DNA from: Octopus vulgaris | Lineage: Eukaryota | Assembly: GCA_951406725.2 (NCBI GenBank) | Contig: OX597814.1 | Span: forward strand, 65,348,001-65,412,000 | DNA: 64,000 bases | Reading direction: 5' to 3' | In this document: positions 52,688 through 54,889 of the stretch, in pieces | Numbering within the stretch: position 1 is the first letter of the stretch | Layout of the letters: every line of letters begins with the position of its first letter | Position numbers and translations under genes: made by a program | Notes under the pieces: generated by a model | Seen by the model: the letters and a program-made list of their open reading frames with translations, nothing else | What the model was told of the DNA's origin: nothing | The model's database searches: none

Positions 52688-54889
52688 TAATATATAAAAG
52701 GGCTTAGTAAAATAAATTACTTTGCCGCATACTGAACTCATTAGAAATAGCAGCTAAAAAACTTTTAAAAACCATTTCTAATACTTAAAGAAAATCTCTC
52801 TCGTATAGTGTTTGGTCAACTCAACTCACGAAAGTTTGGGGGTAAAGACATAAGAAAAATCAAATGCAAAGGTTATTTGAGAACGTACGTTTCAAGATTA
52901 GTCATCAAGACACTTCTATCATCAGCTCAGAAACTCCATGGTTTGGATTTGAAAACACTGAAAGTGAGAGCATATTCTTTCTGCCTCTCATCGCCTTCGA
53001 AGATCTGCTCGTAACTAACAGTGCCAACAAACTCAAGGGAGGACAGAAATTCTTCGCTTGCATGTTTGAGTTTGTTGGCACTGTTAGTTACGAGCAGATC
53101 TTCGAAGGCGATGAGAGGCAGAAAGAATATGCTCTCACTTTCAGTGTTTTCAAATCCAAACCATGGAGTTTCTGAGCTGATGATAGAAGTGTCTTGATGA
53201 CTAATCTTGAAACGTACGTTCTCAAATAACCTTTGCATTTGATTTTTTTTATGTCTTTACCCCCATATATATCAAATGCAAAGGTTATTTGAGAACGTAC
53301 GTTTCAAGATTAGTCATCAAGACACTTCTATCATCAGCTCAGAAACTCCATGGTTTGGATTTGAAAACACTGAAAGTGAGAGCATATTCTTTCTGCCTCT
53401 CATCGCCTTCGAAGATCTGCTCGTAACTAACAGTGCCAACAAACTCAAACATGCAAGCGAAGAATTTCTGTCCTCCCCTTTGCATTTGATTTTTTTTTAT
53501 GTCTTTACCCCCAAACTTTCGTGAGTTGAGTTGACCAAACACTATACGAGAGAGATTTTCTTTAAGTATTAGAAATGGTTTTTAAAAAAGTTTTTTAGCT
53601 GCTATTTCTAATGAGTTCAGTATGCGGCAAAGTAATTTATTTTACTAAGCCCTTTTATATATTGTAATAATTTGAATTCGCCTTAAATGGTCCCTTTGCA
53701 TACTGAACACTTGGTGAAATTAATGAATAATTAATTAATTTTACCCTCAATTGTTGAAATTATAATTAATCTCCCTCTAATTAATGCTTCGGAATTTACC
53801 GAAATAAGCAGAGTGTTTGTTGATTTTAACCCACGCTGGTGGAAAGGGGAGGACAGAAATTCTTCGCTTGCATGTTTGAGTTTGTTGGCACTGTTAGTTA
53901 CGAGCAGATCTTCGAAGGCGATGAGAGGCAGAAAGAATATGCTCTCACTTTCAGTGTTTTCAAATCCAAACCATGGAGTTTCTGAGCTGATGATAGAAGA
54001 GTCTTGATGACTAATCTTGAAACGTACGTTCTCAAATAACCTTTGCATTTGAGTTTTTTTTTATGTCTTTACCCCCAAACTTTCGTGAGTTGAGTTGACC
54101 AAACACTATACGAGAGAGATTTTCTTTAAGTATTAGAAATGGTTTTTAAAAAGTTTTTTAGCTGCTATTTCTAATGAGTTCAGTATGCGGCAAAGTAATT
54201 TATTTTACTAAGCCCTTTTATATATTGTAATAATTTGAATTCGCCTTAAATGGTCCCTTTGCATACTGAACACTTGGTGAAATTAATTAATAATTAATTA
54301 ATTTTACCCTCAATTGTTGAAATTATAATTAATCTCCCTCTAATTAATGCTTCGGATTTTACCGAAATAAGCAGAGTGTTTGTTGATTTTAACCCACGCT
54401 GGTGGAAAGGGAGGACAGAAATTCTTCGCTTGCATGTTTGAGTTTGTTGGCACTGTTAGTTACGAGCAGATCTTCGAAGGCGATGAGAGGCAGAAAGAAT
54501 ATGCTCTCACTTTCAGTGTTTTCAAATCCAAACCATGGAGTTTCTGAGCTGATGATAGAAGTGTCTTGATGACTAATCTTGAAACGTACGTTCTCAAATA
54601 ACCTTTGCATTTGATTTTTTTTTTATGTCTTTACCCCCAAACTTTCGTGAGTTGAGTTGACCAAACACTATACGAGAGAGATTTTCTTTAAGTATTAGAA
54701 ATGGTTTTTAAAAAAGTTTTTTGGCTGCTATTTCTAATGAGTTCAGTATGCGGCAAAGTAATTTATTTTACTAAGCCCTTTTATATATTGTAATAATTTG
54801 AATTCGCCTTAAATGGTCCCTTTGCATACTGAACACTTGGTGAAATTAATTAATAATTAATTAATTTTACCCTCAATTGAAATTATAAA
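52688..54889. repeat. 562-bp unit array with tandem and inverted partial copies, each carrying an HHR
   Basis: Segments about 52688-53036 (reverse), 53037-53264 (forward), 53271-53479 (reverse), then a head-to-tail run 53478-54889 with period 562. Near-identical copies flanked by (TA)n. Confidence 0.93.
53983..54034 (+). ncRNA. Type I hammerhead ribozyme in the 562-bp unit (also 53173-53224 +, 54545-54596 +, 52878-52929 -, 53290-53341 -)
   Basis: tgag CTGATGA t aga-ag-agtc-ttgat-gact-aa-tct t GAAAC gtac GTT ctca. Four-bp stem I, palindromic AACGTACGTT stem III, GUU triplet. Confidence 0.78.

What the first reader, a model, noticed from the sequence alone, without database searches (positions are those of the whole stretch)
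52688..54889. 562-bp hammerhead array with strand-switch inversions
Seen: five HHR copies (52878-52929 and 53290-53341 minus; 53173-53224, 53983-54034 and 54545-54596 plus) in near-identical sequence. The left 800 bp flips orientation three times (about 53037, 53265-53271 and 53478) before a head-to-tail run of period 562. Canonical CUGAUGA/GAAAC core, palindromic AACGUACGUU stem III and an unusual GUU triplet. Inference: a second, larger retrozyme or PLE pLTR-only family, integrated by RT template switching. Transcription would give both long dsRNA and self-cleaved 562-nt monomers.
Basis: partly seen in the sequence, partly recalled or inferred. Interest (0 to 1): 0.75.

Follow-up and report, generated by a model that had tools for sequence, protein, structure and literature searches.

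The report
Two-armed Penelope-type hammerhead retrozyme insertion
This is one young copy of an abundant, protein-less jumping repeat that carries a predicted self-cutting RNA motif; its inverted copies almost always start their two back-to-back arms at two different fixed points, which likely shows how Penelope-type enzymes copy one RNA into both ends of a DNA break.

Summary
In detail: five hammerhead (HHR) copies, three flips, 562-bp period, both ends in (TA)n. The locus belongs to a genome-wide non-coding family (2,292 HHR matches; 815 exact matches of one end).

The family rule matters more than the three flips. In 100 of 107 inverted insertions, two arms are joined head-to-head, one ending at unit base ~481 and the other at ~380 (one long+long, no short+short). 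In 12 loci neither arm can be a fold-back copy of the other. Both arms share one haplotype. The two ends lie in a covarying RNA structure kept in relatives only 60-73% alike.

This is the Penelope-like element (PLE) inverted-plus-tail footprint, with a ~100-nt tail instead of 30-40. The likely mechanism is twin priming on sense RNA. The two extra flips are unique to this locus (1 of 135).

The HHR core is invariant but odd (GUU triplet, U-U mismatch at the base of stem II). Cleavage, circles and the mobilising PLE are not shown. This scan already noted two-armed retrozymes elsewhere in this genome.

The parts
52411..52688 (.). left (TA)n target microsatellite
52689..53036 (-). short-end arm, unit u380 to u30; the outer end is the family's short end point
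52878..52929 (-). type I HHR copy 1
53037..53265 (+). central piece B, u1-231; 2-nt microhomology (AA) with the short arm
53173..53224 (+). HHR copy 2, inside the 207-bp hairpin
53266..53270 (.). non-unit insert TATAT, resembling the target microsatellite
53271..53477 (-). central piece C, u207 to u1; 1-5 nt microhomology with the long arm
53290..53341 (-). HHR copy 3
53477..54889 (+). long-end arm, u194-562 + u1-562 + u1-482; outer end at the family's long ('tailed') end point, 3-nt deletion at u468-470
53983..54034 (+). HHR copy 4; predicted cut after 54030
54545..54596 (+). HHR copy 5; predicted cut after 54592
54031..54592 (+). predicted 562-nt monomer between the two tandem cleavage sites (not shown to form)
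   Evidence: inference
54157..54335 (+). structured RNA module spanning both end points (other copies 53594-53772 and 54720-54880); predicted RT-binding and initiation element
54884..54945 (.). right (TA)n target microsatellite

Best explanation
The locus is a young insertion of a non-coding hammerhead retrozyme family whose copies sit in (TA)n as two head-to-head arms ending at two fixed points about 100 nt apart, likely because a Penelope-type RT/GIY-YIG enzyme, supplied in trans, nicks both target strands and primes one cDNA on each from the same sense RNA species. Steps: (1) unit, HHR motif, target and two-end rule are shown in DNA; (2) the sense RNA forms a structured module around both end points (supported by covariation); (3) one strand primes at ~u481 and the other at ~u380 (inferred); (4) each RT runs from 36 nt up to about 12 units over a multimeric or circular template (lengths shown, circle inferred); (5) the two cDNA ends are joined by microhomology or with short templated inserts (junctions shown, pathway inferred); (6) here an extra 207-bp hairpin piece was made at the joint by a further switch or fold-back (inferred). 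The HHR is likely under selection but attenuated, and is read through in most insertions.
For: End rule: 86 of 92 inverted loci among 116 complete loci were long+short, 1 long+long, 0 short+short, 5 other. It holds in each sampling set: 25/27 top-scoring, 30/32 short-anchored, 31/33 long-anchored, and 14/15 in a set picked by HHR position (L226 assigned by eye across a later insertion). In 12 of 77 simple long+short loci each arm holds sequence the other lacks, which excludes fold-back. Arms differ by 0.39% within a locus against a mean median of 3.8% to other loci; the partner arm is closest or joint closest in 54 of 69. Junctions: 41 of 77 have 2 nt or more of microhomology, 25 have inserts; 22 of 81 join at the same unit position against 5.7 by permutation, maximum 15. 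Module: fold z -4.7; 94.8% of cells paired, 9 double changes, 0/500 shuffles, all 13 one-sided changes are G-U on the sense strand. HHR: no deviation at 11 core positions in 96-98 loci against 3.0% elsewhere, while N7 varies; stem I is rewritten but paired in related families. Locus-private variants shared by all covering segments are 18 A>G against 7 T>C, and 18/48 against 4/95 among singletons, which fits an RNA template. Young Neptune-like PLEs in the genome use (TA)n and two ends 35 nt apart; L166 has one of each. The purified anole PLE nicks and extends both strands and starts at two RNA sites (PMC11167929).
Against: No autonomous partner was found: 0 of 59 PLE 3'-end hits carry the module, and the main Neptune-like pLTR aligns no better than shuffles. 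No read spans the window's junctions. The tail is ~100 nt, not 30-40. Arms pass the HHR cut site 224 times; 5' ends just after it are only weakly enriched (9 against 3.6, p 0.011 uncorrected; u229-240 is stronger). Units within some arrays differ in mosaic patterns (L010, L045, L046), against a single monomer circle in those loci. A test for both arms starting in the same unit was null (8/7/7). Gene conversion could also make arms alike. G>A is also skewed (13 against 3 C>T), so the A>G excess need not be editing. Twenty of the loci in the core-conservation count were chosen through HHR patterns.
Confidence: 0.7

Rival explanations
1. One priming event only: RT starts at one end, folds back or switches to an antisense RNA, and the endonuclease cuts the hairpin DNA intermediate at the other TA-rich site. 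This is close to the self-priming idea in PMC3846280 and the 'EN-mediated resolution' idea in PMC8557442.
For: 22 of 81 junctions are near-perfect palindromes at one unit position. Both end points are TA-rich like the target. The window's central piece is a perfect 207-bp hairpin whose two halves both stop at u1.
Against: 12 of 77 loci cannot be fold-back products. Either arm can be the longer (short arm longer in 27 of 81). The module's wobble pairs fit the sense strand. A switch to antisense RNA is not excluded by these data.
Confidence: 0.15
2. Dual priming on two separate RNA molecules, one per target strand, rather than on one molecule.
For: The arms overlap in sequence in most loci, which needs strand displacement, a multimer or two RNAs. 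The phase test was null.
Against: Arms share locus-private variants (19 of 48 such variants are on both arms). No locus with arms from different subfamilies was seen: the largest arm-to-arm difference among 69 loci was 3.4%. Two free RNAs would not by themselves give the strict long/short pairing.
Confidence: 0.1
3. The three flips at this locus are an assembly or read chimera.
For: It is the only three-flip locus among 135, and no spanning read was seen.
Against: The ends obey the family rule. The joints carry microhomology and a target-like TATAT insert. All five covering segments share two private variants. The halves are not mirror images, and the window has no gap. The single inversion is family-wide and cannot be a local artefact.
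Confidence: 0.05

Closest known systems
Metazoan non-LTR retrozymes (Cervera and de la Pena 2020, PMC7229834, passages; Li, Clavereau and Pollet 2026, bioRxiv 10.64898/2026.07.22.740005, parts 1-3 of 5)
   Same: Non-coding, low-GC tandem units with one type I HHR each, dispersed in thousands of copies, co-existing with PLEs; unit length inside the 51-972 bp range of Li et al.
   Different: Most insertions here are two-armed inversions with two fixed ends in (TA)n ('inverted' occurs 0 times in PMC7229834). No pLTR homologue found. HHR has GUU and a mismatch at the base of stem II. circRNA and cleavage not shown.
EN+ Penelope-like elements, Penelope/Poseidon and Neptune clades (PMC8557442 and PMC3846280, passages; PMC11167929, parts 1-2 of 4)
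   Same: Partial tandems, an inverted 5'-truncated copy, a tail often on one end only, palindromes at the inverted joint, microsatellite targets, HHR in the repeat, two RT start sites.
   Different: No ORF; tail ~100 nt against 30-40; the one-tail rule is counted here (100 of 107) rather than described as 'often'.
L1 twin priming and dual priming (PMC2837659, passages)
   Same: Both target strands prime cDNA, giving two inverted pieces joined inside.
   Different: No poly(A) tail; both start points are fixed; the arms usually overlap instead of flanking a deletion; it is the majority outcome here; no readable TSD.
Non-autonomous Chlamys PLEs such as MRC1 (PMC8557442, passage)
   Same: Non-autonomous, multicopy head-to-tail insertions with pLTRs.
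   Different: Those resemble their autonomous family at the 3' end, and that clade lacks canonical HHRs; here an HHR is present and no partner similarity was found.

Membership tests
Metazoan non-LTR retrozyme | Type I HHR in every tandem unit | tested here: met
Metazoan non-LTR retrozyme | Short low-GC tandem unit, no protein | tested here: met
   562 bp; local GC 32-36%; no frame of 120 aa or more inside 52754-54889; PLE protein hits only flanks
Metazoan non-LTR retrozyme | Self-cleavage and circular RNA expression | not testable with these tools
   only contigs of runs guessed to be RNA were available; genomic 5'-end signal weak
Metazoan non-LTR retrozyme | Target-site duplication when present | tested here: inconclusive
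   both ends lie in (TA)n
Non-autonomous PLE derivative | Inverted 5'-truncated copy with a tail on one end | tested here: met
   100 of 107 inverted loci; tail ~100 nt
Non-autonomous PLE derivative | Microsatellite or AT-rich target | tested here: met
   (TA)n at the 3' ends
Non-autonomous PLE derivative | Sequence similarity to the pLTR of an autonomous PLE | tested here: not met
   0 of 59 PLE 3'-end hits; shuffle-level alignment; only the top 150 of 6,136 GIY-YIG candidates were scored
Autonomous PLE | RT plus GIY-YIG ORF | tested here: not met
Type I hammerhead | Conserved core C3 U4 G5 A6 N7 G8 A9, G12 A13 A14, A15.1-U16.1 | tested here: met
   no deviation at 11 positions in 96-98 loci; N7 = U, A or C
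Type I hammerhead | Stems I-III with compensatory change | tested here: met
   stem I UGAG/CUCA here, CCUACG/CGUAGG and AUUAUG/CAUAAU in related families; palindromic stem III
Type I hammerhead | G10.1-C11.1 pair at the base of stem II | tested here: not met
   U-U (or A-A in 6-7 loci) followed by A-U; related family B has G-C
Type I hammerhead | NUH triplet, usually GUC | tested here: inconclusive
   GUU in 94 of 98 loci, GUA in 4; formally NUH, but absent from Table 1 of PMC1636495
Type I hammerhead | Match to an Rfam hammerhead model | tested here: not met
L1-type twin priming | Poly(A)-primed first strand, non-fixed internal second primer, internal deletion, TSD | tested here: not met
   no poly(A), two fixed starts, overlapping arms

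The most novel reading that the evidence does not exclude
A dimeric PLE enzyme binds one structured retrozyme RNA that offers two start sites and assigns one site to each strand of the cut (TA)n. The two polymerases then run around one circular or multimeric RNA and fix A-to-I edits of that RNA into the genome. This single rule would explain the PLE tail, the head-to-head inversions and the tandem arrays, and the ~180-nt module would be a portable PLE-loading RNA with a deliberately weak GUU hammerhead.
Probability: 0.35. Interest if true: 0.72.

Novelty: new variant of a known kind. Interest (0 to 1): 0.46.

Why it matters
How PLEs make tandem/inverted insertions with a tail on one end is called undefined in PMC8557442. 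How animal retrozymes are mobilised is inferred from co-occurrence and pLTR similarity (bioRxiv 10.64898/2026.07.22.740005). This family gives hundreds of young insertions with a near-strict two-end rule, and a small covarying RNA module that predicts exact start positions on each strand. That makes the question testable with the existing in vitro PLE assay. As an element it is a known kind, and the three flips at this one locus are a rare variant of the family's normal product.

Tried and rejected
Rfam, gathering and E-value modes: no hammerhead, only miRNA-hairpin matches caused by the inversions.

Partner search: 150 GIY-YIG matches, 50 loci fetched, no shared module. PLE ORFs beside family copies in L050 and L117 are separated from them by (TA)n or unrelated sequence.

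Expression and junction support: no RNA holder listed; four runs laid were contigs only and none spans the locus. Neither point is evidence for or against.

HHR cut site as the 5' end of templates: weak, 9 against 3.6. Both arms starting in the same unit: null. A single monomer circle for every locus: not supported in L010, L045 and L046. L224 (12 identical units) abuts an assembly gap and was not counted.

Rows dropped: 14 of L001-L130 were duplicates, cut or unresolved (116 kept); L078 was dropped from the module alignment because its insertions distorted it; two inner helices were not counted because the alignment was out of register there.

Literature searches listed no paper on cephalopod retrozymes or counting the two-end rule. 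The library lacks most subscription journals, and no supplements were read.

Full report
Setting. The window lies on contig C1 of G000, a 2.8-Gb animal genome in 227 contigs. Earlier AI notes call it octopus; I did not check that. Unit coordinates (u) refer to window 53847-54408.

1. Observation. The insertion spans 52689-54889 between two (TA)n tracts. It reads: minus u380>30; plus u1-231; TATAT; minus u207>1; plus u194-562, u1-562, u1-482. The five HHR copies, the three flips and the 562 period are as reported. Rfam does not detect the ribozyme.

2. Family. A DNA search gave 1,390 candidates, of which 40 were scored. Exact patterns gave 815 long ends joined to (TA)n, 51 short ends of one subtype, 62 copies of the window's HHR variant and 2,292 HHRs of the family type against 1 control. 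I analysed L001-L130 (116 distinct complete insertions) and L221-L240. Two related families, about 60-73% alike, with units of about 600 and 556 bp, show the same two-end layout.

3. Two-end rule. Of the 116 loci, 92 are inverted and 24 have one arm (14 long, 10 short). Of the 92, 86 pair a long end (u471-485) with a short end (u372-390); 1 is long+long, none short+short, 5 other. The rule holds whichever end anchored the sample (25/27, 30/32, 31/33). In 20 loci picked by HHR position, 14 of 15 inverted ones obey it, 4 have one arm and 1 abuts a gap (L226 was assigned by eye). The total is 100 of 107. Both outer ends are 3' ends in the HHR sense, so the arms meet head-to-head. The window is the only locus of 135 with three flips.

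4. What the arms say about mechanism. In 12 of 77 simple long+short loci each arm holds sequence the other lacks, so neither is a fold-back copy. Either arm may be the longer, and arms reach about 12 units. Arms of one locus differ by 76 of 19,518 sites (0.39%) against 3.8% to other loci. Of 77 joints, 41 show 2 nt or more of microhomology, 11 are blunt or nearly so, and 25 have inserts; several inserts copy neighbouring sequence. This resembles polymerase-theta joining (recalled, not tested). 22 of 81 joints fall at one unit position, against 5.7 by permutation.

Variants private to a locus and shared by all its covering segments are rich in sense A>G: 18 of 48, against 4 of 95 singletons (Fisher p 6e-7; 18 A>G against 7 T>C, p 0.015). 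That fits an edited or error-bearing RNA template copied repeatedly. G>A is skewed too (13 against 3), so editing is not proven. Some arrays are uniform (L028, L221), others are mosaics (L010, L045, L046), so a monomer circle cannot be the only template unless later exchange is invoked. The phase test was null.

5. Structured module. The stretch holding both end points folds with z -4.7. In 13 aligned sequences from the related families, 21 pairs in three helices are 94.8% paired, with 9 double changes and 0 of 500 shuffles as high; slid controls pair 25-46%. All 13 one-sided changes are G-U on the sense strand. The sequences are related and the structure came from the window's fold, so these figures are not probabilities. 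Each end point lies some 10-20 nt after a helix that closes in CCC. I infer that this is the RT-loading element.

6. Ribozyme. Eleven core positions never vary in 96-98 loci, while other sites deviate by 3.0% and N7 takes three letters; 20 of these loci were chosen through HHR patterns, and the core was also intact in the 230 copies from L001-L130. Related families keep the architecture with a rewritten stem I; one has a canonical G-C pair and GUC, the other a U3-A8 core and GUC. This family has GUU in 94 of 98 loci and GUA in 4, and a U-U or A-A mismatch in place of G10.1-C11.1. The lowest-energy monomer fold is an inactive register that uses U17 (-10.0 kcal/mol against -2.7 for the active fold drawn without distal pairs). 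Weak cleavage at GUU is recalled knowledge; Table 1 of PMC1636495 lists none. Arms pass the cut site 224 times, with a weak excess of 5' ends just after it. An attenuated, dimer- or protein-assisted HHR is the likely reading, as for PLE HHRs in PMC4209133 and PMC11167929.

7. The extra flips. The central piece 53037-53477 is a 207-bp hairpin at the head-to-head joint. Its joints show AA microhomology, a TATAT insert and 1-5 nt of overlap. All five covering segments share two private variants. It is most simply a large templated insertion made by one more switch or fold-back; the order of events cannot be fixed. A read-through RNA is predicted to pair 348 and 207 bp and leave only HHR 53983 free, so monomers would need a transcript that starts inside the tandem run.

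8. Partner. The genome holds a young Neptune-like PLE (clade label from my reading of its zinc-finger motif): a 665-aa truncated copy at window 34368-36365 and many 781-aa frames. It ends in (TA)n at two points 35 nt apart, and L166 has one of each. It is the obvious candidate, but it shares no detectable sequence with the unit.

9. Comparison. The parts are known: retrozymes (PMC7229834, passages; bioRxiv 10.64898/2026.07.22.740005, parts 1-3 of 5), PLE inversions with a one-sided 30-40 bp tail (PMC8557442 and PMC3846280, passages), two start sites and extension of both strands in vitro (PMC11167929, parts 1-2 of 4), minimal PLE HHRs (PMC4209133, parts 1-2 of 4) and L1 twin priming (PMC2837659, passages). 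Six searches listed nothing that counts the long/short rule or describes it for retrozymes. Supplements were not read; those of PMC11167929 (Fig. S2) and of the preprint may bear on this. Earlier notes of this scan describe the same two-armed layout for other repeats of this genome.

Verdict. Real; a retrozyme that works like a non-autonomous PLE, with a long tail, a covarying loading module and a variant HHR. Membership by descent from a PLE pLTR is not shown. Interest 0.46.

Noticed in passing
window 34368-37350: 5'-truncated Neptune-like PLE, 665-aa open frame with RT and GIY-YIG, ending in (TA)n. Full copies have a 781-aa frame and an apparent upstream frame. Its repeat holds an HHR-like motif with a U3-A8 core, palindromic stem III and GUU (GUA in older copies), paralleling this family.
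   Followed up: partly
window 61585-62437: 360-bp tandem (2.4 copies) between (TA)n tracts with an HHR-like motif (CCGACGA core, GUC triplet); a two-armed copy of the same repeat is in L050:6740-7050.
   Followed up: partly
window 60620-60665 (minus) and 34300-34365 (minus): Further HHR-like motifs. With the 360-bp and 562-bp families and family C, they show a mismatch (U-U, A-A, C-A) at the first position of stem II: possibly a recurring hammerhead variant in this genome.
   Followed up: no
L181-L200 and L201-L220: Two related retrozyme families (about 600 and 556 bp; 1,779 and 1,767 first-look candidates) share the structured module and two-end layout. One has a canonical HHR with a long stem II, the other a U3-A8 core.
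   Followed up: partly
L050:6660-7060, L117:5430-5700, L174:5500-5850: Retrozyme copies sit in the (TA)n at PLE 3' ends, so (TA)n-targeting elements pile up in nests.
   Followed up: partly
L041, L042, L046: Variants recur with periods of about 4, 3 and 2 units in long arrays: multimeric templates or later unequal exchange.
   Followed up: partly
L226:960-1150: An unrelated repeat ending in (GAT)n is inserted at the TA-rich short end point (u375-384) of a long arm.
   Followed up: no
window 21150-25367 and 44770-48223: Fragments of non-LTR retrotransposon-like ORFs, one of 521 aa; family not tested.
   Followed up: no
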